The notes beneath the pieces were generated by a model, which ran no database searches, was not told the origin of the DNA, and worked only from the letters and a program-made list of their open reading frames with translations. A DNA stretch of 58,715 bases from an uncultured Gammaproteobacteria bacterium (GTDB lineage: Bacteria; Patescibacteriota; Patescibacteriia; UBA9934; GWF2-40-263): the NCBI GenBank assembly GCA_964588505.1, contig CAZPPQ010000001.1, positions 1-58,715 of the forward strand, given 5' to 3'. Position numbers and translations under genes: made by a program. Positions 3-52,433 of this stretch are shown one piece after another (the first letter of the stretch is position 1; each line of letters begins with the position of its first letter).

Positions 3-575
3 GAACCGCTCCTCGTCTCCTGCAAGAGCAAATCCGCATGTATAAAATAGGCTGTCCACGAGGCTAGCCCAGAGGCTGTCCCCGAGGCTGTCCCCGAGGC
101 TGTCCCCGAGGCTAGCCCAGAGGCTGTCCCCGAGGCTGGCCCAGAGGCTGTCCACGAGGCTGGCACGGAGGCTGTCCCCGAGGCTGTCCCCGAGGCTGTC
201 CCCGAGGCTGGCCCAGAGGCTGTCCCCGAGGCTGTCTCCGAGGCTGGCCCAGAGGCTGGCCCAGAGGCTGTCCCGGAGGCTGTCCCAGAGGCTGTCTCGA
301 TAAACATTTTCGGTCATCCATTCCGGCTTTGGGAAAGGATGCTTCCGACTTACAAACACCACCTTTTCAACAGGCCTGCCTGTCGCTTTTGCAACAGCAA
401 CGGCGTAGGCGACAGCATTAATTTTCTTGTCAGGAACAAGCGGAAGCTTGCCTGTCTCCGCAACTTTGACCCAATGGACCAGAGCTTCCTCAACTCTTGT
501 CCAAAAGGCCATTTTGTCTTGCTTTTGGAAAAGATCTCTCAAAGGAGCAAGATCAACTTTGTTCATTTCTGCCAT
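3..575 (-). CDS. partial CDS running off the left edge: ~90-aa unknown N-terminal domain followed by about 20 tetrapeptide [D/A]-S-L-[W/G/R] repeats
   Basis: ATG at 575 with GGAG 7 nt upstream. I checked every plus-strand triplet starting at positions divisible by 3 from 573 down to 3 and found no tta/cta/tca. Absent from the ORF track, presumably because there is no stop in the window. Translation: MAEMNKVDLAPLRDLF...RDSLWDSLRDSLWASLWASLGDSLGDSL... Confidence 0.6.
   Translation of the reverse strand, partial: MAEMNKVDLAPLRDLFQKQDKMAFWTRVEEALVHWVKVAETGKLPLVPDKKINAVAYAVAVAKATGRPVEKVVFVSRKHPFPKPEWMTENVYRDSLWDSLRDSLWASLWASLGDSLGDSLWASLGDSLGDSLGDSLRASLVDSLWASLGDSLWASLGDSLGDSLGDSLWASLVDSLFYTCGFALAGDEERF
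51..299. repeat. tandem 12-bp repeat, about 20 units (variants gaggctgtcccc / gaggctggccca)
   Basis: Direct reading of lines 51-300. Unit variants differ at 2-4 positions. The array encodes the tetrapeptide repeats of the edge CDS. Confidence 0.9.
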
Positions 576-1618: not shown

Positions 1619-1640
1619 CCTAACTCCCTAACTCCCTAAA
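1619..1640. repeat. octamer array (cctaactc units) between permease and ATPase genes
   Basis: cctaactccctaactccctaaa read directly; 8-nt period with CTAA cores. Confidence 0.7.
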
Positions 1641-1642
1641 AG

Positions 1643-3904: not shown

Positions 3905-4065
3905 GGGATCTCTGCAAAAGTCCATTTCAGGATGAAAGCGAGGAATGTTTTCCGGATGCGAGGAAGGATTCCGGAAATGATATCGCCATATCATTGAGGA
4001 ATCCTGACGACGCAGCCGGAAAACATAACCGCTTTCAGGCCGGAAGCGACTTTTGCAGAGGTCCC
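3905..4065 (+). repeat. F1 long-hairpin (MITE/RPE-like) element, copy A, 161 nt
   Basis: 18-nt terminal inverted repeats gggatctctgcaaaagtc / gacttttgcagaggtccc. Nested internal pairings: gaaagcg/cgctttc, atgttttccgg/ccggaaaacat, aggattcc/ggaatcct, atgatat/atatcat. 160/161 identical to the copy at 34202. Confidence 0.85.
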
Positions 4066-6796: not shown

Positions 6797-6806
6797 TCGG
6801 CAAGAA

Positions 6807-6871
6807 GGGCGTTAGGCTCTAGGCTTTAGGACATTAAAGTTTAAATCCTTAACTCCCTAAATCCCTAACGG
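6807..6871. repeat. inverted pair of octamer arrays (ggcgttag/ggctctag ... ctaactcc/ctaaatcc)
   Basis: gggcgttaggctctaggctttagg, 11-nt spacer, taaatccttaactccctaaatccctaacgg. Fills the alr to ftsQ-like intergenic gap. Confidence 0.8.
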
Positions 6872-6877
6872 CTACCT

Positions 6878-7732
6878 ATGTCATCCACAGGAGGATATTT
6901 TCGACAAACGCAACGGAAACGTCTCGTGGTGCGGCCGTATCAAAATCCTTATTTCAGGCGCGAGCCGAAACGAAACTGGCGGAGATGGCTATTCATCGGG
7001 ATCGGATGCGTTTCGGCCGGGCTCGTATTCTTTTTTTTGGCCGCGCCGTGGTTTGAAATCCACGCGGTTGAAATCCGCGGAACCGAAATTCTCGTCCCTC
7101 GTGAAATCGAAGTGCGCGTCCGCGATCATCTCAACCAAAGACGTTTTTTTTCCTTTAAGAATGGCAATCAATTTCTCTTCCGACCGCAAGAATTAACAAA
7201 GGCTCTTGAAAAACAATACGTATTTGAATCTCTTTCCGTTATGAGGGAGGGCGGAACCGTGCGCATTGACATCCGCGAAAAACAATCCGAACTGGTGTGG
7301 ATGACACCTGAGAAAACCTATATCATTGATCGTGAAGGAGTCGTTCTCCGAACACTCTCGCAAGAAGAGAGCGGGGCGCGAGAAAATGGAACAGACCCTT
7401 TTGCTAGACTGCTTCAGTGCCGCAGTATGCAAAAACAGGCTCTATCGGTCGGGGCGTCGGTTCTCAACCCTTCTGAAGTCGAGACGCTTTTTTTCTTTCG
7501 GCGCGAGTGGGAACCGCTCGGAATTTTTATCAAGGAGATCAAAATTGATCGCGCTTCCGGCTCATGGATGACCGCAAAAACAGGGTTGGGATTTGAAATC
7601 CTTTTTGATCCGAACGGATCGGCTAAAGATCAAACATCCAACCTTTTTACGGTTTTTCGCGATCAAATCAAGGATCCCGGTCTACTTGAATATATTGATC
7701 TGCGGTTTGGAAATCACGTCTATTACAAATAG
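6878..7732 (+). CDS. FtsQ-like cell division protein (TM + POTRA)
   Basis: Basic N-terminus, one TM (WLFIGIGCVSAGLVFFFLA), then a POTRA-like segment IHAVEIRGTEILVPREI. Confidence 0.55.
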   Translation: MSSTGGYFRQTQRKRLVVRPYQNPYFRREPKRNWRRWLFIGIGCVSAGLVFFFLAAPWFEIHAVEIRGTEILVPREIEVRVRDHLNQRRFFSFKNGNQFLFRPQELTKALEKQYVFESLSVMREGGTVRIDIREKQSELVWMTPEKTYIIDREGVVLRTLSQEESGARENGTDPFARLLQCRSMQKQALSVGASVLNPSEVETLFFFRREWEPLGIFIKEIKIDRASGSWMTAKTGLGFEILFDPNGSAKDQTSNLFTVFRDQIKDPGLLEYIDLRFGNHVYYK

Positions 7733-8998: not shown

Positions 8999-9142
8999 AA
9001 CAGTTAAACGACACGCCTAACGCCTAAAACGCGCCAGGACGATTTGATGGGTATGCTCGTACCTCTATTAGGCCCTATAGGATCTATGGGGCCATGGCAA
9101 CAGGGCGTACATCGTAGGGAGTGTTGGAAAATATCGGCTATC

Positions 9143-12204: not shown

Positions 12205-12248
12205 GCTCTAGGGATTTAGGCTCTAGGGATTTAGGCTCTAGGCTTTAG
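12205..12248. repeat. octamer array, GGNNNTAG orientation (ggctctag/ggatttag x5)
   Basis: gctctagggatttaggctctagggatttaggctctaggctttag, immediately 3' of the GT26 gene. Confidence 0.85.
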
Positions 12249-12256
12249 TCCTCAAC

Positions 12257-13144
12257 TTAATTCCCGACCTCTGACTTCTCCTCTTTATGAAATACTTGTC
12301 GGAAAATTTCCGGGACCGCGCGACGAAACGCGCGCAAGAAGATTCGATGCTTCAGTGTACTCCAAACGACCGCGGCTGGAAAGACGAGGATGGCGTTCCA
12401 GATCCTACGAAATCGTTTTGGTTCTTGCGCTAAGCGCCACACCCACTCGAGTCCGGATCGGCTCATCCATGCCGGAGCACGGGCAATCGTTCCGCTTTGC
12501 ACGTCGAACGCGCCGCCGACCCCGATGCCGATGCGCAGTGATGGAAGTAATGGAGCAACGTGGCATAAAAAGAATTCCTGCTTTTTCTGTCCGAGCCCGA
12601 CGGCGAGCACATCCGGAGCTTCGTTTCGGAGTCGAGTCATGATACCTCCCCATACCCCCTTCTTGGCAGGAGGGGGCATTTCTTGCATTCCTCCCCTGCC
12701 AAGGGCAGGTAAGCAGGGGTCGCCTAACTCGACCACTCCCGGATCGAATCCAAACACGCGAAGCGACGGAAACTTGGTTTTCAAAAATACAGCTGCTTTT
12801 TCCGCGCTTCCTGGTAAGCCTCCGACAAGCCCGAGCGTCTTCCCTTTCTCTGTACAAAGTTTCGCGAGCAGAAAAAGCGTGTCCGTTCCTGTATGCCGAT
12901 GTTGAAGAAGGTTTGGCGTGAGCGCCGCAATGGCAAACCGCATTCCGACCCCGTCTGGAAGAGCCAGGTCGGCTTTATGTAACAATTCATAAAATTCTTC
13001 GTCTTCCCTTGCCTGCAGTAAAAACTCCGGATTCAAAGTTGTGATAAGATGGAACGAAGGCGAGGCAAGATCATCTGAAAGAATCTCTAAAAGTCCAGCG
13101 AGAGGGATATCATCAATTTTTACGCCAAAAATTTCGTGTTTCAT
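12257..13144 (-). CDS. WecB/TagA/CpsF-family (GT26) glycosyltransferase
   Basis: 295 aa. N-terminus FGVKIDDIPL and C-terminus GLEWVWRLAQEPKRFRR are typical of GT26. Contains an apparent ~30-aa insertion encoded by a palindromic stretch (12662-12704). Confidence 0.75.
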   Translation of the reverse strand: MKHEIFGVKIDDIPLAGLLEILSDDLASPSFHLITTLNPEFLLQAREDEEFYELLHKADLALPDGVGMRFAIAALTPNLLQHRHTGTDTLFLLAKLCTEKGKTLGLVGGLPGSAEKAAVFLKTKFPSLRVFGFDPGVVELGDPCLPALGRGGMQEMPPPAKKGVWGGIMTRLRNEAPDVLAVGLGQKKQEFFLCHVAPLLPSLRIGIGVGGAFDVQSGTIARAPAWMSRSGLEWVWRLAQEPKRFRRIWNAILVFPAAVVWSTLKHRIFLRAFRRAVPEIFRQVFHKEEKSEVGN

Positions 13145-13179
13145 AAATCCCTAAATCCCTAACTCCCTAGAGCCTTTAG
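13145..13179. repeat. octamer array, CTANNNCC orientation (inverted relative to 12205-12248)
   Basis: aaatccctaaatccctaactccctagagcctttag, immediately 5' of the GT26 gene. Confidence 0.85.
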
Positions 13180-13206: not shown

Positions 13207-13235
13207 TTGACTTTTCCAAATTAGCACTCTATCAT
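13207..13235 (+). promoter_or_regulatory. sigma70-type promoter of clpB
   Basis: TTGACT, 17-nt spacer, TATCAT. The -10 hexamer lies inside the CIRCE spacer. Confidence 0.6.
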
Positions 13236-13247
13236 AAGGAGTGCTAA
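13221..13247 (+). promoter_or_regulatory. CIRCE operator (HrcA binding site)
   Basis: Exact match to the consensus TTAGCACTC-N9-GAGTGCTAA: ttagcactc tatcataag gagtgctaa. Confidence 0.9.
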
Positions 13248-13260
13248 GAAGAACTTACAG

Positions 13261-13286
13261 GTGATAGGTGTGAGCTTATAGCTTAT
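13261..13286. repeat. octamer units gtgatagg/gcttatag flanking F2 copy A (left)
   Basis: gtgataggtgtgagcttatagcttat read directly. Confidence 0.6.
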
Positions 13287-13447
13287 GGGGCTGTCGCCGA
13301 ATGTGCTTTTGAAGCGAAATGGCTGAATTTCGAGACAGAATCGTTGAATAAATTTTGAGGTTTATCAGTAGATAAGCCGAAAAATTTTGAAACGATTATG
13401 ACCGAAATTCAGACATTACAGCCAAAATGACATTCGGCGACAGACCC
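13287..13447 (+). repeat. F2 long-hairpin (MITE-like) element, copy A, 161 nt
   Basis: Terminal inverted repeats ggggctgtcgccgaatgt / acattcggcgacagaccc. Internal pairings ctgaatttcg/cgaaattcag and aatcgtt/aacgatt. About 93% identical to the copy at 21912. Confidence 0.85.
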
Positions 13448-13472: not shown

Positions 13473-13506
13473 CTCCTATAAGCTATTCCCTATAACCTAT
13501 AAGCTT
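13473..13506. repeat. octamer array cctataag/ctattccc/ctataacc (right flank of F2 copy A)
   Basis: ctcctataagctattccctataacctataagctt read directly, 16 nt before the clpB ATG. Confidence 0.75.
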
Positions 13507-13521
13507 GTCCCAACATCTATT

Positions 13522-16185
13522 ATGATGCCTAACAATTTCACTTTAAAATCCCAAGAAGCTCTTCAGCAAGCGCATTCCATCGCGCTTGAAAACGGCCAGC
13601 AAGCCATGGAACCGATCCATTTGCTCGCTTCCCTGCTTGATCAAGAGGACGGCGTCGTTGCCGCGATCGTGAACAAAATTATGGGAAATGTCGGCGAGTT
13701 GCAGGATCGCGTGCGCCGCATCCTCGGATCTCTTCCGCAGGTCGAGGAACTCTCCGGCGGCTTGGGCCAGCTCTATCTTTCCCCGGATACAGTTTCTGTT
13801 TTAACACAAGCCGGAAAAAAAGCAAAACAATTTCATGATGAATTCATCTCGACTGAACACTTGCTTCTTGGTTTGATGACAAACAAAGCTGTCGGGCATT
13901 TGCTCGAAGGGTTTACGCTCACAGAGGAGACGGTGATGCGCGCACTCAAAGATATTCGCGGAAACCAGCGCGTGGATTCGCAAGAGCCAGAGTCGCGCTA
14001 TCAGGCGCTCGAACGCTACAGCAGAAACCTCACGGATGCCGCGCGTGCCGGAGAGCTTGATCCGATTATCGGTCGCAATATGGAAATCCGCCGCGTGATG
14101 CAAGTGCTTTCGCGCCGCACAAAAAATAATCCGGTTTTGATCGGCGAAGCCGGAGTCGGAAAAACCGCAATCGTCGAAGGTCTTGCGCAACGCATTGCCG
14201 CAGGCGATGTTCCTGAATTATTAAAGGAAAAGAAAATCGCCTCTCTCGATATCGGGGCCATGGTCGCCGGAACAAAATTCCGCGGCGAATTCGAAGAACG
14301 CCTCAAGGCCGTGATCAAAGAAGTCGAAGAATCAAACGGCAAGATCATCCTTTTTATTGACGAACTCCACACACTCGTCGGTGCCGGCACGACCGAGGGC
14401 GGCTCCCTGGACGCGAGCAATATGCTGAAGCCGGCTTTGGCGCGCGGCAAGCTTCATACGATCGGCGCAACGACCATAAAGGAATATCACAAGCACATCG
14501 AAAAAGATCCGGCTTTTGAACGCCGTTTCCAACCGGTTTTGATCGAAGAGCCGAGTCTTGAGGACACGATCGCCATCTTGCGCGGCATCAAGGAAAAATA
14601 TGAGGTTCATCACGGCGTGCGCATCAGCGACCCTGCCATTGTTTCCGCGACCGAACTCTCTTCGCGCTACATCGCGGACCGTTTCCTACCTGATAAGGCG
14701 GTTGATTTGATTGATGAGGCCGCGTCGGCCATGCGTATGGAGATTGATTCGATGCCCGAGGATCTGGATAAGTTGAAACGCGACGTGACGCGCCTAGAAA
14801 TCGAACGCAAGGCTATGCAAAATGAGGAAGACAAGGAATCCAAGGTGCGGCTCAAAGAGATCGAAAAATTGCTCGCGAACCTGAAAGAAAAAGCCGACGC
14901 GCTCGAAGGCAAATGGAAAAATGAAAAAGAAAAGATCACGGAAATCCAGACGCTGAAAGGCTCTATGGAAAAAATGCGCGGCGAAGCCGAGTTGGCTGAA
15001 CGCCGCGGGGATTTGGAAGCTGTGGCGAAAATCCGTTATGGAACCATCCCGGCCGAAGAGAAAAAACTCCATTCTGCGGAAAGTGCGCTGACAAAACTGC
15101 AACACGACCGCGGCATCTTGAAACAGGTCGTGACGGAAGAGGAAGTCGCGAGCGTTGTTTCGCGTTGGACGCACATTCCGGTCTCCAAAATGCTCGAATC
15201 CGAATTAAGCAAATTGGCGCGCATGGAAAATGAATTAGGCAAACGAGTGGTCGGACAAAACGAAGCCATCAAAGCCGTGAGTAACGCACTCCGCCGTTCG
15301 CGGGCAGGAATTGCCGAAGAGAACCGGCCGATCGGATCGTTCATTTTCCTCGGCCCGACAGGCGTTGGAAAAACCGAACTCGCTCGCGCACTGGCCGAAT
15401 TTATGTTCAACGACGCGACGGCGCTCATCCGACTTGATATGTCCGAGTATATGGAAAAACACGCCGTATCAAAAATCATCGGTTCGCCGCCAGGATATGT
15501 GGGGTATGAAGAAGGCGGCCAACTGACGGAAATCGTGCGGCGCAAACCGTACAGCGTGCTGTTGTTCGACGAAATTGAAAAAGCACATCCGGACACGTTT
15601 AACGTCCTTCTTCAGATTTTGGACGAGGGGCATCTGACGGATGCCAAAGGCCGGCGCGTGAATTTCAAGAACACGGTTATTATTATGACAAGCAACATCG
15701 GCTCGGACATCATCCTGAACGCCGGAAAAGAAATGACCTCCATTGGATTTTCAAAACTGTCGGAAGCGAAATCAAAGGATGAAGAAATCCGCGAACGGAT
15801 CTTGGGTATGCTGAAGGATCACTTTAAGCCCGAGTTTTTGAACCGCGTGGACGAAACCATTGTGTTCCATTCACTTACTGAAGAAAATATCGGAGAAATT
15901 GTCGAGCTTCAGCTTGAGCGCGTTTCCGTGCGTCTCAAAAAACAGCGCGACATCGCAATCAGCGTTACGCCTGCGGCGAAAAAATTGTTGGCGCAAAAAG
16001 GCTTTGAGCCCGCGTACGGCGCCCGTCCGTTGAAGCGCGTGATCCAATCTCTTATTCTCGACCCGCTCTCGATGAAAATCATCACCGGCGAAGTCCGCGA
16101 GGGGCATCAGGTTGAAATTGAAGAAAAAGAAAATGAAATTCTGATCGGAGAAAAACGAAAAACTCGGATATTGGCTCATGCCTAA
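13522..16185 (+). CDS. clpB: ATP-dependent chaperone ClpB
   Basis: 887 aa with two AAA+ modules ([16 protein letters not shown]) and a middle coiled-coil domain. The stop TAA lies inside a cctaacgc repeat unit. Confidence 0.95.
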
Positions 16186-16212
16186 CGCCCTAAATTCCTC
16201 ATTTCCTTAAAG

Positions 16213-16245
16213 AACCGGCGATTGACAAAATCGTCGGTTTCTGTT
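16213..16245 (+). terminator. rho-independent terminator of clpB
   Basis: Stem aaccggcgat / atcgtcggtt followed by tctgtt. Overlaps the next promoter. Confidence 0.55.
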
Positions 16246-16250
16246 ATATT
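16222..16250 (+). promoter_or_regulatory. sigma70-type promoter with extended -35 TTGACAAAAT
   Basis: TTGACA, 17-nt spacer, TATATT. Confidence 0.65.
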
Positions 16251-16314: not shown

Positions 16315-17067
16315 ATGAGTGTGCGCTTGCTTGAAAAGGAGTGCTTCAAGGGCGCTCCGAACATCAAAAAGCGTATGATGGATCGCCGCGCGAACCGTAG
16401 CGAGCGCCGCCTTGCCAAGATGGCGCTCGCACAGGCCATTTCGGCCCGCATTGCCTTTCAAGGTTCAAAGCGGATGAAGCCGGAGCCACCGGTGTTCTAC
16501 GATCCTCACCTCGATATTTATTTTCAGTTCGATCCGAGTGTCGGGGACTTCATCGCGGTTCCGTGGCCGAAACCGGAAGGAGATATGCTGTTCCTTGCGA
16601 ACGAGCGGTTCGATGGGTTCGTCCATCCGATCAATACCAAAACAGTGGACGGAATGCAGGGCAATCGCATCAACACCATTCACCGCTGGCTGCGCACCTT
16701 GAACGGCAAATCGTGGATCGAGGTCTACTCAATTCTCAGATCTCGTTTCAACCACGGGACATATTTCCTGTGGTGCCGGAATGTCCGCGAATTCGGTCGC
16801 GAAGTCGAGGCCGCGGACAAGGACGATGAGTTCATGGAGTTCTACATCGAGGACGGCATCTTCCGCTGCCATCCGCGCGTGTCCATGAAACACATGGACA
16901 CGGTCATCGAGAAGCCGACAAAGCTCTCGGTAGCGAAGCGTCTGGAGGCAAAAGCGGCTCGTGAAGAGAAGTACAAGAAATCGTTTCGCGAGAAACGATT
17001 CATCATCTCGCACCGCAAGGCCAAGCGCCAAAAACAAGTACCTCTTCAAGAAGCCGTTGCCGACTAG
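16315..17067 (+). CDS. hypothetical protein (250 aa), Arg/Lys-rich termini, no recognised domain
   Basis: ATG at 16315 with AGGAGG ending 7 nt upstream, in frame with track ORF 16222-17067. Has its own promoter and a downstream hairpin. Sampled 60-nt lines are GC-richer than neighbouring genes. Confidence 0.6.
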   Translation: MSVRLLEKECFKGAPNIKKRMMDRRANRSERRLAKMALAQAISARIAFQGSKRMKPEPPVFYDPHLDIYFQFDPSVGDFIAVPWPKPEGDMLFLANERFDGFVHPINTKTVDGMQGNRINTIHRWLRTLNGKSWIEVYSILRSRFNHGTYFLWCRNVREFGREVEAADKDDEFMEFYIEDGIFRCHPRVSMKHMDTVIEKPTKLSVAKRLEAKAAREEKYKKSFREKRFIISHRKAKRQKQVPLQEAVAD

Positions 17068-18834: not shown

Positions 18835-19620
18835 ATGATTGTCTTTGCGGCTTTTACGCCACATTCTCCGCTTTTGATGCCAGCCATCGGGATAGCAAAG
18901 GAAAAACAACAGAAGAAAACTTCAGAGGCCATGCGCCTCCTCTCTTCGCGTTTGCGAAAAACAAAACCGGAAACGATTGTCGTTATTTCTTCCCACAGCT
19001 TCCAGCACAAGACGGCTTTTTCCATCAATCTGCACGACCGTTATATGACGGATCTTTCAAAATACGGAGACCTTGGCGCGCATAAAACATTCTTGCCGGA
19101 TGTACAGACGATTGACCAGGCCCAACGTTTTTTGCGAGGTCAGGATATACCGGTTACGCTGGATTCTGAAGAGACATTGGATTACAGCATTGCGGTCCCG
19201 CTTCTTCTGCTCACGGACAAACTGTCAGCGAAAATCATCCCGATCTCTTACAGTGGCCTCGGACCGAAAGAACATGCGGCCTTTGGCAATGCCCTTCGCG
19301 AGATCCTTTCCAGAAGTTCGAAACGTATCGCTCTGATTGCGACCGGGGATCTTTCCCACGCGCTCGAAAGTTCCGGACCGGCCGGATTCAAGCCGGAAGG
19401 AAAAAAATTTGATGATGCAGTCGCCGAAGCGATAAAACAGAAATCCCTCTCAAAGCTGCTTTCGCTCGACGAACAGATCGTGCGAGCATCATCGGAATGC
19501 GCCTACCTCCCCCTGCTCATTCTTTTCGGCGCTTTGGAAAAAATTCGTATGCGATCCGAGATTCTTTCTTACGAGACTCCATTCGGTGTAGGATATTTGG
19601 TCGCGGAATTTCATCTTTAG
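18835..19620 (+). CDS. class III extradiol dioxygenase subunit B / Memo-like family protein
   Basis: 261 aa. The N-terminus FAAFTPHSPLL and overall pattern resemble the LigB/Memo fold, from family-level recollection only. The stop TAG lies inside the first repeat unit. Confidence 0.5.
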   Translation: MIVFAAFTPHSPLLMPAIGIAKEKQQKKTSEAMRLLSSRLRKTKPETIVVISSHSFQHKTAFSINLHDRYMTDLSKYGDLGAHKTFLPDVQTIDQAQRFLRGQDIPVTLDSEETLDYSIAVPLLLLTDKLSAKIIPISYSGLGPKEHAAFGNALREILSRSSKRIALIATGDLSHALESSGPAGFKPEGKKFDDAVAEAIKQKSLSKLLSLDEQIVRASSECAYLPLLILFGALEKIRMRSEILSYETPFGVGYLVAEFHL

Positions 19621-19739
19621 GCGTTAGGGAGTTAGGGCGTTAGGAAGTTAAAGAAAATAAGAAGACCTAAATCCCTAGAGACTAAATCCCTAGAGCCTAG
19701 AGCCTAAATCCCTAGAGTCTAGAGCCTAACACCTAATCC
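19616..19739. repeat. largest inverted octamer-array pair in the window
   Basis: tttaggcgttagggagttagggcgttaggaagttaa, then a spacer, then cctaaatccctagagactaaatccctagagcctagagcctaaatccctagagtctagagcctaacacctaatcc. Fills the whole intergenic gap. Confidence 0.9.
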
Positions 19740-21383
19740 ATGCTTGCGGAAATCTATCCAATCAAACGTTTGCCGAGGCGATTTCGAACGCTTTCTTACA
19801 TGATCCCAAAAGGGATGGCTGTCGAACGCGGCACAATTGTAGAAATTCCGTTCCGAACCGGAACGGTTTTTGGTGTTGTGGCTTCCCTGCGCTCAGAGGA
19901 GGCTTCCGACCGATCCTTTTTCGCCAAACCGATCCTAAAAATTTTTTCCCCTCTCGTTTTCTCTTCCGCAGAAGTCGGATGGTTCGAGGCTCTTGCTGAA
20001 GAACTTGTGCAATCCGTCGCGTCCGTGCTGCACGCTGCTTTACCGTCTTTTCCGAAACGGGAAAAACTGACGGTGAAAAAAGTCTTCGGGGGAAAACAAC
20101 TCACGATTCCGGCGGACGAAATTCTTCCACTATCAGAAACGGCAAAACACATGGCAACCCTTGATCGCGCCTTTATTTTTTCGTTGGATTTGCGTCGGAG
20201 CGCCGCTCTCATTTCCGCTTACCGCAAACATTGTCCGGACATCTCAATTCAGATTATCGCGCCACACGTGCGGGACGCAGAGCTCCTGCAAACTCATCTT
20301 GCACATCTCTCCCCTTTTTTTCTGACCGGCGAAGAAACGGCCTTAAAACGATTCCGGATATGGAAAAATTATCGGGAAAGTTCGAACGGTATTTTGATCG
20401 GGAGCCGGGTCGCGGCTCTATTGCCGCATCCAAAACTCGGAGCCGTATTTCTCGTTCGCTCGAGTCATCGAGATCAAAAACAATCGAACCAAAATCCGCG
20501 TTACGACGCGCGGCATACGGCTTCCCTCCTCTCAAAATATCTGCACGCGCGGCTATTCTTTTTGGACGCGGCTCCGCGGACAGACGACCTTCTCTTATTT
20601 CCAGAAGCGCGATTCCTTCGGCCGCTTTCTCTTCCCCAGCCGTCCGTCGCAGATCTCGTGAGAGAACGGCTTGTCTCGCCACATCCGATTCTTTCAAGCA
20701 CAGCCGTCCAAACAATTTTTGAAACCCTCGAAAAGAAAAAACGCGTCCTGTGCGTCTACAACAAGCGCGGAGCGGACAATCGCGCCGCAGTAAACATCCT
20801 GAAACATCAATTTCCAAAAACCTCTATCGTTGGATTGGATAAGGAAATCGGTCTCACGAAAGAAGCGGAAACTGCAGACATTCTTGTTGCCACGCAATTT
20901 TACCTTGAGAGTATTTTTAATCCATTTGATCCCGACGATTTCGGTCTTGTCGTCATGCTTCAAGCGGATTTTCCGCTTTTTGAAAAAACATGCCGGGCGC
21001 TTGAACGAACGCTTGATTCTGCTGCGGAATGGCAAGGAGCCGCGCATGGCATGCGAGCAAAATTTTTACTGCAAAGTGAAACCCCGCGGCTCTTCTCATT
21101 ATTCTTCGACGAACCGCTCGCCGCGCTCAAAAAAGATTTGGAACAGCGCGCAGATTACCGGGAACCGCCTTGTTTCCGATCTCTTGCCATCAAACCGAAA
21201 CAACCGGATCAAAAAGGTCTGGAACAGCTTCGCGAACGTATATGGCGTGAGCGACCCGACGCAATCGTTGAAAAGGAAATGAATGGGATTTCCGTACGTG
21301 TTCATCCGGAAGCCTTTCGCGCGCTTCACACCCTCTTCTCACGGATCCCGGATCGTTTTATTATTGACACAACCGCGGATTGA
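19740..21383 (+). CDS. PriA (primosomal protein N')-like protein with degenerate helicase and zinc motifs
   Basis: The N-terminal 3'-DNA-binding-like domain (TLSYMIPKGMAVERGTIVEIPFRTGTVFGVV) and a core (GILIGSRVAALLPHPKLGAVFLV...PRYDARHTA) are collinear with PriA. Conserved priA-def-fmt synteny. No Walker A, RSSH in place of DEEH, and no Cys cluster. Confidence 0.6.
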   Translation: MLAEIYPIKRLPRRFRTLSYMIPKGMAVERGTIVEIPFRTGTVFGVVASLRSEEASDRSFFAKPILKIFSPLVFSSAEVGWFEALAEELVQSVASVLHAALPSFPKREKLTVKKVFGGKQLTIPADEILPLSETAKHMATLDRAFIFSLDLRRSAALISAYRKHCPDISIQIIAPHVRDAELLQTHLAHLSPFFLTGEETALKRFRIWKNYRESSNGILIGSRVAALLPHPKLGAVFLVRSSHRDQKQSNQNPRYDARHTASLLSKYLHARLFFLDAAPRTDDLLLFPEARFLRPLSLPQPSVADLVRERLVSPHPILSSTAVQTIFETLEKKKRVLCVYNKRGADNRAAVNILKHQFPKTSIVGLDKEIGLTKEAETADILVATQFYLESIFNPFDPDDFGLVVMLQADFPLFEKTCRALERTLDSAAEWQGAAHGMRAKFLLQSETPRLFSLFFDEPLAALKKDLEQRADYREPPCFRSLAIKPKQPDQKGLEQLRERIWRERPDAIVEKEMNGISVRVHPEAFRALHTLFSRIPDRFIIDTTAD

Positions 21384-21912: not shown

Positions 21913-22073
21913 GGGTCTGTCGCCGAATGTGCTTTTGAAGCGAAACGGCTGAATTTCGAGATAGAATCGTTGAATAAATTTTGAAGTTTATCAGGAGATA
22001 AGCCTAAAAATTTTGAAGCGATTATAGCCGAAATTCAGACATGGCAGCCAAAACGACATTCGGCGACAGACCC
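21912..22073 (+). repeat. F2 long-hairpin element, copy B, 162 nt
   Basis: ggggtctgtcgccgaatgt...acattcggcgacagaccc, flanked by tata on both sides. Sits between def and fmt. Confidence 0.85.
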
Positions 22074-30924: not shown

Positions 30925-30945
30925 ATTAGGCGTTAGGCGTTAGCC
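30925..30945. repeat. octamer units ggcgttag x2 inside the ribosomal operon
   Basis: attaggcgttaggcgttagcc between rpsM and rpsK. Confidence 0.7.
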
Positions 30946-31902: not shown

Positions 31903-32002
31903 TTAGGTGATAGCTTAGAGGTGATAGCTTATAAAAATTGGCTCATAAAAGCGATAAAAAATCTCCTATAAACTATAAGCTATAAGCTAAAACCTATAAG
32001 CC
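31903..32002. repeat. inverted octamer arrays (ggtgatag/gcttatag ... cctataag/ctataagc)
   Basis: ttaggtgatagcttagaggtgatagcttataa, then a spacer, then ctcctataaactataagctataagctaaaacctataagcc. The last unit supplies the alaS stop codon (minus-strand gcttatag). Confidence 0.8.
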
Positions 32003-33872: not shown

Positions 33873-33897
33873 TGGGCGTTAGGCGTTAGGCTCTAGG
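33873..33897. repeat. octamer units ggcgttag/ggctctag upstream of alaS
   Basis: gggcgttaggcgttaggctctagga read directly. Confidence 0.75.
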
Positions 33898-33946
33898 ATT
33901 TTGTTTCGAATGAAGTGTACAAAAAATCAAGGCGGAGGTCTAGAGG

Positions 33947-34201: not shown

Positions 34202-34362
34202 GGGATCTCTGCAAAAGTCCATTTCAGGATGAAAGCGAGGAATGTTTTCCGGATGCGAGGAAGGATTCCGGAAATGATATCGCCATATCATTGAGGAATC
34301 CTGACGACGCAGCCGGGAAACATAACCGCTTTCAGGCCGGAAGCGACTTTTGCAGAGGTCCC
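34202..34362 (+). repeat. F1 long-hairpin element, copy B, 161 nt
   Basis: Identical to copy A except one A-to-G change, which turns an A:T stem pair into G:T (G:U in RNA). Ends 11 nt from the murJ stop. Confidence 0.85.
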
Positions 34363-34373
34363 AATATCAAAAA

Positions 34374-37958: not shown

Positions 37959-38002
37959 GGAGTTTGGATTTAGGTGTTAAGCTTTGGATACAAATTATTT
38001 TA

Positions 38003-38452: not shown

Positions 38453-38555
38453 GGTATTAGGCGTTAGACTTTGACAACCAATTCTAGCAGAAACGATGAA
38501 AGATGAAAGTAATGTTCCATTGACGAAAACGATTTTTTATGATTTCATACGCGCT

Positions 38556-47573: not shown

Positions 47574-47606
47574 CTCTAAAGCCTAACTCCCTAAATCCCT
47601 AGAGCC
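47574..47606. repeat. octamer array ctaaagcc/taactccc/taaatccc/tagagcc upstream of dus
   Basis: ctctaaagcctaactccctaaatccctagagcc read directly. Confidence 0.8.
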
Positions 47607-47629: not shown

Positions 47630-48706
47630 GTGTTCTCTTGGAAATCCGCCGAAAAACCGATCGTTGCGCTTTCGCCAATGGCTGATATGACAGATTCGGC
47701 GTTTTGTCGCGTGGTGAAAGAAGTCCTTCTTGAAGTCGACAACCAACAAAGCCCCTCGACTCCGGCCGGCTCTGCCGGCCTTCGCTCGGGGAATAAAAAT
47801 CCTACAAGCTACCAGCTACAAGCTACAAGCTTCCCGTTGATTTTTCGCGAAATGATCTCGTCCGAAGCGGTCGTGCGCAAAAATAAAAAGACGCTCGCAA
47901 TGGCCGAACTCCATCCAAGCGAGCGACCAATCATTCAACAAATTTTCGGGGGGGATCCGGAAGTGATGGCCAAAGCCGCTCGGGAAATCGAAGAGACATT
48001 CTATCTAGACGGCATTGACATCAATATGGGATGTCCTGTGTATAAAATCGTCTCAAACTTCAATGGCGCGGCGCTGATGAAAGAGCCGGCGCGCGCGGCG
48101 CAGATTGTGCGCGCGGTGAAAGCCGTTGTCTCTGTTCCTGTCTCGGTGAAAATCCGACTCGGATGGAACGATCCGAACGAGTGCGTCGCGTTCGCAAAAG
48201 TGTTGGAAGCCTCTGGAGCGGATGCGATCGAGGTGCACGCGCGCACAAAAATGCAAGGGTATTCCGGAAAGGCAAACTGGGCGCAAGTTGCAAAAATAAA
48301 ACGGGTAGTTTCGATTCCTGTGCTTGTGAACGGCGACATTGTTTCAGGCGCGACCGCGCTTGAGGCGCTTGAAAAGAGTGGGGCGGACGGCGTTTTAATC
48401 GGCCGTGGGGCTTTGGGAAATCCGTGGATTTTTTTGGAGATAAAACAAGCGATAAAAGATATGTCCGATAGGTCTTATAAGACCTATCGGACATATCAAC
48501 CGCTTGCAGAACGTCTCCATGTTATCCGCCGCCATTTGGAATTGCATTGCGAACAATACGGCGAGCGCGGCGTCGTGACATTCCGCAAACATCTCGGCTG
48601 GTACTTCCGCGGCCTGCCGCATGCAAAAGAAATCCGCGAACGATTGTTCGCGGCAAAGACAAGAGAGGAATTGATCGCAGCCCTCGACCGAGGCGACGAC
48701 CCTTGA
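47630..48706 (+). CDS. tRNA-dihydrouridine synthase
   Basis: GTG start. Dus motifs ALSPMADMTDSAF, DINMGCP, VKIRLGW and GRGALGNPWIF. Carries two repeat-derived in-frame insertions. Confidence 0.9.
   Translation: MFSWKSAEKPIVALSPMADMTDSAFCRVVKEVLLEVDNQQSPSTPAGSAGLRSGNKNPTSYQLQATSFPLIFREMISSEAVVRKNKKTLAMAELHPSERPIIQQIFGGDPEVMAKAAREIEETFYLDGIDINMGCPVYKIVSNFNGAALMKEPARAAQIVRAVKAVVSVPVSVKIRLGWNDPNECVAFAKVLEASGADAIEVHARTKMQGYSGKANWAQVAKIKRVVSIPVLVNGDIVSGATALEALEKSGADGVLIGRGALGNPWIFLEIKQAIKDMSDRSYKTYRTYQPLAERLHVIRRHLELHCEQYGERGVVTFRKHLGWYFRGLPHAKEIRERLFAAKTREELIAALDRGDDP
47752..47832 (+). repeat. in-CDS insertion: GC-rich hairpin + aataaaaat + heptamer array (ctacaag x4)
   Basis: cccctcgactccggccggctctgccggccttcgctcggggaataaaaatcctacaagctaccagctacaagctacaagctt encodes ...SPSTPAGSAGLRSGNKNPTSYQLQATSF..., which is absent from the usual Dus N-terminal region. 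Confidence 0.65.
48458..48497. repeat. perfect 40-bp palindrome of five 8-nt units inside the dus CDS
   Basis: gatatgtc cgataggt cttataag acctatcg gacatatc. I verified that it equals its own reverse complement. Encodes DMSDRSYKTYRTY. Confidence 0.95.
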
Positions 48707-52353: not shown

Positions 52354-52433
52354 GGCTTATAGCTTATAGGAATTAGCTTATAGGAATTGATAATTAACCG
52401 TTTTCTATCCTATAAGCTATAACCTATAAGCTT
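52354..52433. repeat. inverted octamer arrays (gcttatag/gaattagc ... cctataag/ctataacc)
   Basis: ggcttatagcttataggaattagcttataggaatt, 18-nt spacer, atcctataagctataacctataagctt. Fills the gap between the two genes. Confidence 0.85.

What the first reader, a model, noticed from the sequence alone, without database searches (positions are those of the whole stretch)
19616..19739. Genome-wide punctuation by 8-nt-periodic stop-codon arrays at gene boundaries
At least 14 intergenic junctions carry tandem 8-nt units with a CTA[A/G/T] core. Examples are ctaaatcc, ctagagcc, ctaacgcc, ctaactcc, ctataagc and ctataacc, or their complements ggatttag, ggctctag, ggcgttag and gcttatag. The arrays are at 1619, 6807, 12205, 13145, 13261/13473, 16181, 19616, 30925, 31903, 33873, 37966, 38453, 47574 and 52354. 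Most units contain a stop on both strands (CTAA/TTAG; CTAG is self-complementary). Because the period is 8 (2 mod 3), three consecutive units place stops in all three frames, so arrays of three or more units act as six-frame translational stops. Arrays often occur as oppositely oriented pairs around a short spacer. I do not recognise them as a described repeat class such as REP, BOX, ERIC, STRR or HIP1.
Basis: seen in the sequence. Interest (0 to 1): 0.72.

Follow-up and report, generated by a model that had tools for sequence, protein, structure and literature searches.

The report
Seven/eight-base repeat arrays between genes
A groundwater Uhrbacteria (candidate phyla radiation) genome has recently filled about 40% of its gene-to-gene spacers with short tandem arrays of 7- and 8-base units that all share a CTA/TAG core. 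They are real and far from random, but they are a new example of a repeat class already described in Xanthomonas, Nostoc and Beggiatoaceae, not a new stop-codon punctuation system.

Summary
The arrays exist at every listed coordinate. I count 15 chains of at least 3 CTA/TAG cores spaced 7 or 8 nt, against 0.08 expected, and 14 of them lie in the 7.8% of DNA that is intergenic. Independent assemblies carry identical arrays, so they are not an artefact. The period is mixed: 35 heptamers and 15 octamers.

The host is a Candidatus Uhrbacteria bacterium. Relatives at 90-93% ClpB identity carry arrays at the same junctions, with other copy numbers and unit variants. Four syntenic relatives at 75-78% have none, and there the same genes overlap or abut.

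The arrays are therefore recent insertions or expansions. They sit between the clpB promoter/CIRCE operator and the clpB ATG, and inside the znuCB, rpsM-rpsK and ligB-priA operons, so they are almost certainly transcribed and are not terminators.

The C-rich strand usually lies just 5' of start codons. Opposite arrays are always ordered G then C, and the heptamer pairs fold into strong hairpins.

This matches published dispersed heptamer repeats (TAACTGA, GGGAATC/GGGGAYT). Best reading: slippage-driven, largely selfish long-unit simple sequence repeats, confined to gene junctions because they are full of stop codons. Nothing I found shows that blocking translation is what they are for.

The parts
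1619..1641 (+). CTA-type array (CTAACTCC x2 + partial) between the znuC stop (1643) and the znuB start (1603). Both genes are on the minus strand, so the array is G-type in their sense.
6810..6832 (+). TAG-type array (3 heptamers), 14 nt after the alr stop. It is the left arm of a loose G->C pair.
   Evidence: pair fold z = -0.8
6846..6874 (+). CTA-type array ending 4 nt before the ATG of the 284-aa gene. It is the right arm of the pair.
9013..9029 (+). Two-unit CTAACGC array between the pgi stop and the next gene.
12205..12250 (+). TAG-type array of 6 units with a 15-nt super-period at 100% identity, between the gltX start (12189) and the wecG stop (12257), both on the minus strand. In the transcribed sense it is C-type, 18 nt upstream of the gltX ATG.
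   Evidence: These genes overlap by 4 nt in relative L008.
13144..13172 (+). CTA-type array abutting the wecG start codon. It is G-type in the wecG sense and is the main exception to the polarity rule.
   Evidence: The orthologous array has 7 units in L005 and 3 in L007.
13270..13286 (+). G arm (GCTTATAG x2) of the clpB-leader hairpin pair. It lies downstream of the clpB promoter (13207-13235) and the CIRCE operator (13221-13247).
13475..13505 (+). C arm (CTATAAG-type, 4 units) of the clpB-leader pair, 17 nt before the clpB ATG. A 161-nt MITE-like element (13287-13447) is inserted between the two arms.
   Evidence: In L005 the same site holds an intact CTACAAG hairpin with fold z = -7.1.
16182..16203 (+). 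Two CTA-type units (CTAACGCC, CTAAATTCC) that begin inside the clpB stop codon.
   Evidence: L007 has a 7-unit TAG-type array at this junction and L005 has none.
19616..19650 (+). TAG-type array of 4-5 units. Its first TAG is the ligB/memo stop codon.
19666..19739 (+). CTA-type array of 10 units (CTAAATCC/CTAGAGC, 22-nt super-period) ending directly at the priA ATG (19740).
   Evidence: Fold of the pair gives z = -2.5. ligB and priA overlap by 4 nt in L008, and the protein termini are preserved.
30925..30945 (+). TAG-type array (GCGTTAG x2.6) between rpsM (S13) and rpsK (S11) on the minus strand. In sense it is C-type, 18 nt upstream of the S11 ATG.
31903..31933 (+). G arm (14-nt super-period, 100% identity) of the hairpin pair that follows the alaS stop on the minus strand.
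   Evidence: (z = -4.2). A promoter-like site (11/12 match, 31881-31853, minus strand) lies between this pair and infA.
31964..32001 (+). C arm (CTATAAG x5) overlapping the alaS stop codon (31994-31996).
33873..33899 (+). TAG-type array of 3 units. In the alaS sense it is C-type, 11-17 nt upstream of the alaS ATG (33862).
   Evidence: Contigs L130 and L131 break here.
37966..37982 (+). Degenerate two-unit array (ggatttaggtgttaag). In sense it is C-type, 8 nt upstream of the glycosyltransferase ATG (37958).
38459..38474 (+). Two-unit array (ttaggcgttag). In sense it is C-type, 5-7 nt upstream of the spoU-family methylase ATG (38452).
47574..47605 (+). CTA-type array of 4 units in the dus leader, downstream of a TTGTCA-17-TATCCT promoter-like site that I read by eye.
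47800..47832 (+). Intragenic array (CTACAAG/CTACCAG x4) read in frame as PTSYQLQATS. It lies inside an insert of about 34 aa in the dus gene. CTACAAG is the only unit type with no stop on the CTA strand.
52354..52388 (+). G arm (14-nt super-period, 100% identity) of a hairpin pair between the DUF8128 gene stop and the TraG/TrwB-like gene start, both on the minus strand.
   Evidence: (z = -5.9)
52408..52433 (+). C arm (CTATAAG-type, 3 units) of the same pair.

Best explanation
These are dispersed long-unit simple sequence repeats with 7- and 8-nt units. They are the Uhrbacteria counterpart of the intergenic heptamer arrays of Xanthomonas, Nostoc and Beggiatoaceae.

Inferred origin and growth: they arise and change by replication slippage of one to three units. 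In the paired form, strand or template switching between the two arms keeps the arms complementary.

Shown: they spread recently within one narrow Uhrbacteria lineage. They are found almost only in gene-to-gene spacers.

Inferred filter: because nearly every unit carries stop codons, only junction insertions survive selection.

Shown by position, inferred as consequence: they lie between promoters and start codons and inside conserved operons. They must therefore be transcribed as leader or intercistronic RNA, and they cannot be efficient terminators.

Shown: they turn formerly overlapping or abutting junctions and near-leaderless starts into 20-120-nt spacers. The C-rich, G-poor strand usually lies just 5' of the start codon, without a Shine-Dalgarno sequence. 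The G-rich strand usually follows the upstream stop.

Inferred effect: G->C pairs fold into long RNA hairpins. I think the arrays are mostly selfish or neutral DNA. Their polarity probably reflects selection against G-rich, SD-like or structure-prone sequence in translation-initiation regions. Any effect on translation start or mRNA stability is secondary.
For: - Slippage signature: there are 14-, 15-, 16- and 22-nt super-periods at 93-100% identity.
- Copy number and unit type differ at orthologous junctions among relatives at 90-93% ClpB identity. The wecG-start array has 3, 7 and 3 units. The clpB stop has 2, 0 and 7 units.
- Concerted change that preserves complementarity in the clpB-leader hairpin: all four C-arm units differ T/C between the window and L005, and the G arm carries the matching change.
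- Recent and lineage-restricted: there are no arrays in 78.8 kb of four syntenic Uhrbacteria at 75-78% ClpB identity. In the best-studied of these, L008, ligB/priA, gltX/wecG and def/fmt overlap, and CIRCE abuts the clpB ATG in L008 and L010.
- ORF termini are preserved to within a residue around the arrays.
- Location filter: enrichment in intergenic DNA is roughly 100-fold. The only intragenic array uses the stop-free unit, in frame.
- Transcribed and not terminating: the arrays lie downstream of the conserved clpB promoter and CIRCE and inside znuC-znuB, rpsM-rpsK and ligB-priA. None of the 6 convergent junctions has one.
- Polarity: in the window, 10 of 12 arrays nearest a start codon were scored C-type in sense. 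One of the two G-type calls (31964-32001) is a misassignment; that array actually overlaps the alaS stop. In 118 loci from other phyla the counts are start-C 31 against start-G 10, and stop-G 48 against stop-C 17, Fisher p = 9e-7.
- Order of opposite neighbours: G->C in 12 cases (5 window, two of them found only by looser detection; 7 other phyla), C->G in 1.
- Hairpins: z = -4.2, -5.9 and -7.1 for heptamer pairs. Single arrays are unstructured.
- The same syndrome is published for TAACTGA (PMC4679880) and for GGGAATC/GGGGAYT (PMC4692102).
Against: - The CTA/TAG core is present in all 14 intergenic 7/8-nt arrays that TRF finds in the window. In other phyla's 7/8-nt arrays it occurs only at chance level, about 22%. 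Purely neutral drift of units would not obviously keep one trinucleotide fixed, so recognition by a factor, or selection for stops, is not excluded.
- The arrays show no length polymorphism among ten contigs of the same population, so slippage is not fast.
- The placement is very precise, often 0-20 nt from the ATG, and the hairpin arms stay complementary. Both could reflect function.
- No transcript data are available.
- Turnover was compared at only four junctions, in two short relatives.
Confidence: 0.55

Rival explanations
1. The arrays are multivalent binding sites for an oligomeric RNA-binding (or DNA-binding) protein that reads CUA/UAG triplets at a 7-8-nt pitch. HutP reads UAGNNNNUAGNNNNUAG in this way and TRAP reads (G/U)AG repeats; ribosomal protein S1 or a cold-shock protein are other candidates. 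Together the sites would form a lineage-specific post-transcriptional regulon acting on translation starts that lack Shine-Dalgarno sequences.
For: - The trinucleotide core is invariant while the other 4-5 unit positions vary.
- The arrays have 3-10 units and sit 0-20 nt from start codons that lack SD sequences.
- CTA/TAG is the rarest trinucleotide in coding DNA.
- HutP's motif is exactly UAG plus 4 sequence-independent spacer bases, repeated three times, in two sites (PMC2425495).
- The same idea was proposed for TAACTGA repeats (PMC4679880).
Against: - No candidate protein was found. No HutP- or TRAP-like family appears among window proteins in the Pfam results.
- The genes preceded by arrays are unrelated housekeeping genes.
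- Arrays are gained, lost and resized between 90-93% relatives.
- CTA/TAG rarity is equally present in array-free relatives.
- The strand next to start codons is CUA-type, not UAG-type.
Confidence: 0.2
2. The paired heptamer arrays (CTTRTAG)n-loop-(CTAYAAG)n are copies of a small mobile palindromic element, REP/REPIN- or MITE-like, moved by a transposase encoded elsewhere in the genome. The single arrays would be decayed halves.
For: - Four hairpins share one architecture, including a recurrent TAGGAATT loop start and an AGGTGATAG flank.
- Insertion falls precisely between intact ORF ends.
- The genome clearly hosts mobile small elements: two 161-nt families with terminal inverted repeats, and an in-frame 40-nt palindrome in dus.
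Against: - Arm lengths, unit numbers and loops differ in every copy, and similarity is essentially confined to the units themselves.
- Most arrays (the CTAAMTCC/CTAGAGC type) are single and unstructured.
- No transposase gene is present in the window.
- The super-period duplications point to growth in place.
Confidence: 0.12
3. The arrays are selected as six-frame stop-codon barriers that end any translation crossing a gene boundary.
For: - 45 of 50 units carry a stop on the CTA strand, and every unit carries TAG on the other strand.
- Periods 7 and 8 rotate the frame, so 3 units cover all frames.
- Arrays often begin in, or abut, the upstream stop codon.
Against: - Close relatives do without any arrays, and their genes overlap at the same junctions.
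- The stop-free CTACAAG unit builds normal intergenic arrays in L005.
- The Xanthomonas GGGAATC arrays show the same distribution, and tandem GGGAATC reads without a stop codon on either strand (read from the unit sequence).
- Convergent junctions, where read-through from both sides would matter, have no arrays (0 of 6).
- Arrays of 10 units are far longer than a stop barrier needs.
Confidence: 0.06
4. The arrays are transcription terminators or insulators, or act through G-quadruplex formation.
For: - Pairs fold into hairpins of -31 to -41 kcal/mol.
- The alaS pair lies between the alaS stop and a strong promoter-like site for infA.
- Related G-rich heptamers form G4 structures in vitro (PMC4692102).
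Against: - The clpB hairpin lies between the only conserved promoter/CIRCE and the ATG, so it cannot terminate efficiently.
- Arrays sit inside the rpsM-rpsK and znuCB operons.
- No U-tracts follow the hairpins, and the terminator scan does not flag them.
- Convergent junctions use ordinary GC-rich hairpins instead.
- No window array has four GGG tracts; the maximum is 3, at 13144-13172.
Confidence: 0.05

Closest known systems
TAACTGA heptamer direct repeats of marine Beggiatoaceae, also in some Cyanobacteria and Bacteroidetes (MacGregor 2015, PMC4679880)
   Same: Both are tandem 7-nt units, with related variant units interspersed, at many dispersed intergenic sites. In both, the stop-rich 'forward' orientation lies directly upstream of start codons (often 1 nt away) where no ribosome-binding site is present. 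Both occur inside ribosomal-protein operons. Intragenic copies occur only in the stop-free orientation. Close relatives lack them, so the phyletic distribution is patchy. The unit even shares the TAACT pentamer with CTAACTCC.
   Different: Here there are several unit families (7 and 8 nt) mixed within one array and sharing only CTA. Inverted G->C pairs and hairpins are common here, whereas only one inverted case is reported in BOGUAY. Density is higher: about 1 array per 3 kb, against about 1 per 50 kb (rough figure, from 169 sets among about 5,330 genes). The host is a small candidate-phyla-radiation genome.
GGGAATC (Xanthomonas) and GGGGA(C/T)T (Nostoc; STRR-type) intergenic heptamer repeats (Rehm et al. 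2015, PMC4692102)
   Same: Both have heterogeneous tandem units and about 90% intergenic location. Both lie within about 50 nt of ORF ends with the same polarity: the G-rich strand is on the coding strand after stops and on the non-coding strand before starts. Convergent inverted pairs are frequent in both. Position is conserved but length varies between related species. The Xanthomonas repeats are shown to be transcribed.
   Different: Those units carry G3-4 tracts, favour 4 units and form G-quadruplexes. The window arrays have at most 3 GGG tracts, and many units have none. Tandem GGGAATC carries no stop codons on either strand (read from the unit sequence), whereas these carry them in nearly every unit. 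Those repeats are rare between divergent genes, whereas here divergent junctions are often occupied.
REP/BIME/REPIN elements of proteobacteria (from my own knowledge; REPIN paper PMC3116915 seen but not read)
   Same: Both are short extragenic palindromes, often as inverted doublets, placed between co-transcribed genes and transcribed as hairpins.
   Different: REPs are single imperfect palindromes with a conserved 5' GTAG and a cognate RAYT transposase. They are not built of tandem 7-8-nt units. No RAYT was seen here.
HutP and TRAP RNA sites (HutP motif from PMC2425495; TRAP from my own knowledge)
   Same: Both present UAG triplets separated by sequence-independent spacers at a 7-nt pitch, in two clusters separated by a linker.
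   Different: Those are single regulatory sites in one operon leader, bound by a known protein. Here there are about 20 sites in 59 kb, next to unrelated genes, with no known binding protein.
Contingency-locus SSRs of host-adapted pathogens, which cause phase variation (from my own knowledge and the introductions of PMC4692102 and PMC12721329)
   Same: Both are tandem short units prone to slippage, and some lie in promoters or 5' UTRs.
   Different: Those have homogeneous units (mostly 1-5 nt), sit at a few surface or restriction-modification genes, and are hypervariable within populations. Here the arrays are identical across ten contigs of the population and flank housekeeping genes.

Membership tests
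Dispersed intergenic hepta/octanucleotide SSR arrays (STRR / GGGAATC / TAACTGA kind) | Head-to-tail tandem units of 7 (or 8) nt, with related variant units interspersed | tested here: met
   There are 35 heptamers and 15 octamers of 19 unit variants. TRF reports periods 7, 8, 14, 15, 16 and 22.
Dispersed intergenic hepta/octanucleotide SSR arrays (STRR / GGGAATC / TAACTGA kind) | Many separate loci, strongly over-represented in intergenic DNA | tested here: met
   About 20 arrays lie at 15 of 38 spacers. 14 of 15 chains lie in the 7.8% of DNA that is intergenic.
Dispersed intergenic hepta/octanucleotide SSR arrays (STRR / GGGAATC / TAACTGA kind) | Close to ORF ends, with strand polarity (one strand before starts, the other after stops) | tested here: met
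   In the window, 10 of 12 arrays nearest a start were scored C-type in sense. One of the two G-type calls (31964-32001) is a misassignment, because that array overlaps the alaS stop. The uncorrected window Fisher test gives p = 0.16, so the window alone shows only a trend. The same octamer in 118 loci of other phyla gives p = 9e-7.
Dispersed intergenic hepta/octanucleotide SSR arrays (STRR / GGGAATC / TAACTGA kind) | Convergent inverted pairs occur | tested here: met
   There are 5 G->C pairs in the window and 7 in other phyla, with no C->G among those and one C->G neighbour in L005.
Dispersed intergenic hepta/octanucleotide SSR arrays (STRR / GGGAATC / TAACTGA kind) | Site kept but length and sequence variable between related genomes; absent from other relatives | tested here: met
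   L005, L006 and L007 compared with the window. L008, L010, L166 and L167 have none.
G-quadruplex-forming repeats (Rehm et al. subclass) | At least 4 consecutive G3+ tracts in an array | tested here: not met
   The maximum is 3 GGG tracts (13144-13172). The heptamer families CTAGAGC, CTATAAG and CTAACGC have none.
Cyanobacterial STRR1-3 in the strict sense | Unit sequences CCCCAGT, TTGGTCA or CAACAGT (recalled from my own knowledge) | tested here: not met
   None of the 19 unit variants matches.
REP/REPIN | Conserved imperfect palindrome of 20-40 nt with a 5' GTAG, plus a RAYT transposase in the genome | tested here: inconclusive
   The hairpin pairs share an architecture but are built of tandem units of variable number. 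GTAG occurs only in the CTACAAG type. There is no transposase in the window, and the rest of the genome was not available.
Intrinsic (Rho-independent) terminator | GC-rich stem-loop followed by a U-tract at a transcript end | tested here: not met
   The scans do not flag the arrays, apart from one trivial internal match at 19702-19688. No T-runs follow the hairpins. The clpB hairpin lies between promoter and ATG.
Phase-variation (contingency) SSR | Copy-number polymorphism within a population | tested here: not met
   Arrays are identical in L001-L004 and L129-L134. These are consensus assemblies only, so minor variants would be missed.
HutP-type RNA site | UAGNNNNUAGNNNNUAG motif, and a HutP-family protein in the genome | tested here: inconclusive
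   The motif is present in the heptamer TAG-type arrays, for example 30927-30943 and 33880-33896. No HutP family appears among the Pfam hits of window genes. The whole genome was not available.
Rfam RNA families | Match to a curated covariance model | tested here: not met
   Only tRNA-Gln reaches the gathering score in the window.

The most novel reading that the evidence does not exclude
The invariant CUA/UAG core at a 7-8-nt pitch is a code read by an oligomeric RNA-binding protein, HutP/TRAP-like or a ribosome-associated factor. One Uhrbacteria lineage would then have recently wired about a quarter of its genes, including ribosomal-protein, tRNA-synthetase and chaperone genes, into a new translation-initiation or mRNA-stability regulon that works without Shine-Dalgarno sequences. 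Hairpin pairs would serve as its two-site version.
Probability: 0.12. Interest if true: 0.75.

Novelty: new member of a known kind. Interest (0 to 1): 0.4.

Why it matters
Candidate-phyla-radiation genomes are regarded as streamlined. Here one lineage has recently let repeat arrays occupy 11% of its intergenic DNA, together with two MITE-like families and in-frame palindromes. The arrays split ancestrally overlapping genes and put long leaders on genes that were nearly leaderless.

Array-free syntenic relatives and array-bearing close relatives both exist in public metagenomes. That makes this a clean natural before-and-after series. It could be used to ask how dispersed heptamer repeats are born, why they adopt a fixed polarity toward ORF ends, and whether they affect translation that does not use Shine-Dalgarno sequences. 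These questions were left open by the Xanthomonas/Nostoc and Beggiatoaceae studies.

A practical point: these arrays break short-read assemblies. Several contigs end at them.

Tried and rejected
- Assembly or scaffolding artefact: rejected, because ten independent contigs are identical.
- Pure 8-nt periodicity: rejected, because 70% of units are heptamers.
- Known RNA family: none found.
- Terminator or promoter consensus in the arrays: not found, and overall site counts were not above shuffles.
- G-quadruplex: too few G-tracts.
- Phase variation: no polymorphism found.
- Is the CCTAAMTC octamer exceptional among octamer repeats? The genome-contig scan gave more than 118 stretches across many phyla. 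In viral contigs the target gave 11 loci and two shuffled-unit controls gave 15 and 4. Cross-phylum recurrence therefore cannot be taken as evidence of common origin or special status.
- CTA core as a general property of bacterial 7/8-nt repeats: rejected. It is only about 22% in other phyla, which is chance level.
- The metagenome-contig scan with the LigB protein returned a single short locus and added nothing.
- Text searches for the unit sequences returned only primer lists.
- No paper combining 'candidate phyla radiation' with 'simple sequence repeats' was found.
- hyp250 (16315-17067), an orphan basic protein present only in array-bearing lineages, was considered as a possible trans-acting factor. 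It has no family match, and the co-occurrence rests on three genomes. I did not pursue it.
Full report
OBSERVATION

The span 19616-19739 reads tttaggcgttagggagttagggcgttaggaagtta, then a 15-nt spacer, then cctaaatccctagagactaaatccctagagcctagagcctaaatccctagagtctagagcctaacacctaatcc, followed directly by ATG.

A scan for chains of at least 3 CTA or TAG cores spaced 7 or 8 nt finds 15 chains, against 0.08 in Markov simulations. Eight chains have at least 4 units, against none simulated. Tandem Repeats Finder recovers the same arrays independently. It also finds 14-, 15-, 16- and 22-nt super-periods at 93-100% identity.

Splitting the arrays at CTA gives 35 heptamers and 15 octamers among internal units. 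The main types are CTAAATCC, CTAGAGC, CTATAAG, CTAACTCC, CTAACGC and CTAAAGC. The '8-nt period' is therefore wrong as a general description. The shared CTA/TAG core is right.

ARTEFACT CHECK AND HOST

ClpB, AlaRS and a TraG/TrwB-like protein of the window are encoded on ten other contigs. These come from several groundwater metagenome assemblies, including scaffolds labelled ANAN16 and MEGAHIT k141/k127 contigs. They are 99.8-100% identical to the window, and their arrays are identical. The only differences are N-runs and a few SNPs.

The closest named ClpB homologues are from Candidatus Uhrbacteria (Parcubacteria/Patescibacteria).

GENE CONTEXT

I built the gene map from gene calls on those identical contigs plus Pfam. 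The window has 38 spacers of at least 15 nt, and about 15 of them carry arrays.

- Fourteen chains of at least 3 units and 8 two-unit chains lie in 4,454 nt of intergenic DNA. One and four, respectively, lie in 53,000 nt of coding DNA. Arrays make up 11% of intergenic bases.
- Arrays occur at co-directional and divergent junctions but at none of the 6 convergent ones (Fisher p = 0.06). The convergent junctions carry ordinary GC-rich hairpins instead.
- Several arrays lie inside operons that are conserved across bacteria: znuC-znuB (1619), rpsM-rpsK (30925) and ligB-priA (19616).

COMPARATIVE EVIDENCE

Four syntenic Uhrbacteria contigs at 75-78% ClpB identity (L008, L010, L166, L167; 78.8 kb) have no CTA/TAG chains and no intergenic 7/8-nt repeats. 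In L008, ligB/priA, gltX/wecG and def/fmt overlap by 4 nt, and alr is followed within 4 nt by the next gene. In L008 and L010 the CIRCE operator of clpB abuts the ATG.

In the window the protein termini are preserved to within a residue. LigB ends ..EFHL* against ..QFHLI*, and PriA starts MLAEIYP against MIAETYP. The arrays therefore sit exactly between intact ORF ends.

Contigs at 93% (L005, L006) and 90% (L007) ClpB identity do carry arrays, with these differences:

- wecG start: 3, 7 and 3 units of CTAAMTCC type.
- clpB leader: a CTATAAG pair split by a 161-nt MITE in the window, an intact CTACAAG hairpin in L005, and a single CTA-type array in L007.
- After the clpB stop: 2, 0 and 7 units.
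- gltX-wecG junction: 6 units in the window, none in L005 or L007.

The arrays are therefore recent, restricted to a narrow lineage, and turning over.

In the clpB-leader hairpin, all four C-arm units differ T/C between the window and L005, and the G-arm units carry the complementary change. This is concerted evolution that keeps the arms complementary.

ARE THE ARRAYS TRANSCRIBED?

The clpB promoter (TTGACT-17-TATCAT, 13207-13235) and a perfect CIRCE operator (13221-13247) are conserved in all relatives. In the array-bearing genomes they lie upstream of the arrays. The arrays must therefore be part of the clpB 5' UTR, and the hairpin there cannot be an efficient terminator. The operon-internal positions lead to the same conclusion. 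This is an inference from position; no transcript data were available.

POLARITY

In the sense of the adjacent gene, the CTA-type (C-rich, G-poor) strand lies 0-20 nt upstream of start codons. It was scored that way for 10 of 12 arrays whose nearest ORF boundary is a start. One of the two G-type calls, 31964-32001, is a misassignment, because that array overlaps the alaS stop. The uncorrected window test gives Fisher p = 0.16, so the window alone shows only a trend. wecG is the clear exception. TAG-type arrays tend to follow stops, and often the stop codon itself is the first TAG.

Few genes here have Shine-Dalgarno sequences at all. Opposite-type neighbours are always ordered G then C. That is 5 in the window (3 by the chain scan, 2 more by looser detection) and 7 in other phyla, against one C->G case, binomial p = 0.003.

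FOLDING

Heptamer pairs fold strongly as RNA: -33, -31 and -41 kcal/mol, with z = -4.2, -5.9 and -7.1. The 19612-19742 pair folds moderately (z = -2.5) and the 6797-6880 pair does not (z = -0.8). Single arrays are unstructured.

STOP CODONS

Forty-five of 50 units carry a stop on the CTA strand, and all carry TAG on the other strand by construction. The exception is CTACAAG/CTACCAG. This is exactly the unit of the only intragenic array (47800-47832). There it is read in frame inside an insert of about 34 residues in the dihydrouridine synthase gene, relative to PDB 1vhn.

This fits stops acting as a filter on where arrays can survive. CTA/TAG is the rarest trinucleotide in coding DNA, but equally so in array-free relatives.

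WIDER DISTRIBUTION

The hits are in Cyanobacteria, Planctomycetota, Bacteroidales, Acidobacteriota, Desulfobacterales, Verrucomicrobiales, Chloroflexota and Armatimonadota, often several per genome and up to 15 or more units.

- In those loci, periods 7 and 8 dominate all tandem repeats. Other units there carry CTA/TAG only at chance level, about 22%.
- The polarity toward ORF ends holds there. Within 50 nt the counts are start-C 31 against start-G 10, and stop-G 48 against stop-C 17, p = 9e-7.
- I could not run a control in that collection. In the viral collection the target and two shuffled-unit controls gave 11, 15 and 4 loci. The recurrence of this particular octamer is therefore not shown to be exceptional.

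LITERATURE

Rehm et al. 2015 (PMC4692102) describe GGGAATC arrays in Xanthomonas and GGGGAYT arrays in Nostoc. These have heterogeneous units and are about 90% intergenic. They lie near ORF ends with the same polarity, form frequent convergent inverted pairs, keep their position while varying in length between species, and are transcribed.

MacGregor 2015 (PMC4679880) describes TAACTGA arrays in Beggiatoaceae. The stop-rich orientation lies directly upstream of start codons without a ribosome-binding site, including in ribosomal-protein operons. Intragenic copies occur only in the stop-free orientation, and the phyletic distribution is patchy.

A Nostoc preprint reports modest reporter effects of heptamer repeats, with no binding partner identified. 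No paper linking such repeats to the candidate phyla radiation was found.

VERDICT

It is a new member of a described kind: dispersed intergenic hepta/octanucleotide simple sequence repeats.

The best-supported mechanism is slippage-driven, largely selfish expansion that is confined to gene junctions by its stop content. The arrays are transcribed as leader or spacer RNA. Their polarity probably reflects what translation-initiation regions tolerate (confidence 0.55).

A protein-read CUA/UAG code remains a live minority alternative, with HutP's UAGNNNN x3 motif as a precedent (PMC2425495). A REP-like mobile hairpin is another. The six-frame-stop function and the terminator reading are unlikely.

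Noticed in passing
window 13287-13447 and 21913-22073: A 161-nt MITE-like element with 25-nt terminal inverted repeats (GGGKCTGTCGCCGAATGTGCTTTTG); the two copies are 92% identical. One copy sits between the two arms of the clpB-leader hairpin. The other sits between the def stop and the fmt start, genes that overlap in relatives. The flanks resemble TATAG/TTATAG array units.
   Followed up: partly
window 3905-4065 and about 34205-34365; partial copy near 745-797: A second element of about 161 nt with terminal inverted repeats (GGGATCTCTGCAAAAGTC...GACTTTTGCAGAGGTCCC). The copies are 99% identical over 125 nt. Assembly contigs end at it.
   Followed up: partly
window 48458-48497: A perfect 40-nt palindrome (GATATGTCCGATAGGTCTTA|TAAGACCTATCGGACATATC) lies in frame inside the dus gene and is read as DMSDRSYKTYRTY. 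It recalls the in-frame palindromic elements of Rickettsia (from my own knowledge).
   Followed up: no
window about 47760-47840: The dus gene carries an in-frame insert of about 34 aa relative to PDB 1vhn. The insert holds a GC hairpin (ccggccggctctgccggcc) followed by the CTACAAG x4 array.
   Followed up: partly
window 13207-13247: A perfect CIRCE (HrcA) operator, TTAGCACTC-N9-GAGTGCTAA, overlaps a sigma-70-like promoter of clpB. It is conserved in all Uhrbacteria relatives. In array-free relatives it abuts the ATG, which implies near-leaderless clpB mRNAs.
   Followed up: yes
window 49-296: A 12-nt tandem repeat of about 20 copies (AGGCTGTCCCCG, with a 24-nt super-period) is open on the minus strand as ((G/W)(D/A)SL)n. 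It lies in an ORF that runs off the window start.
   Followed up: no
window 16315-17067 (promoter-like site 16222-16250): An orphan basic 250-aa protein with an 11/12 promoter match and a strong AGGAGG ribosome-binding site. It is present after clpB only in the array-bearing lineages (window, L005, L007) and is absent at this site in L008, L166 and L167. It has no family match.
   Followed up: partly
window, most gene starts (for example 7799, 17461, 18835, 19740): Most genes lack a recognisable Shine-Dalgarno sequence, although a few have a perfect one. Several promoters sit so close to the ATG that the transcripts would be leaderless, for example TGgTATAAT 11 nt before the ATG at 17461.
   Followed up: no
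L011-L128 (loci): Identical (CCCTAAAT)n and (CCCTAACT)n octamer arrays occur in genomes of at least eight phyla with GC content from 32 to 67%, often several per genome. Those genomes also carry many other 7-8-nt repeat types.
   Followed up: partly
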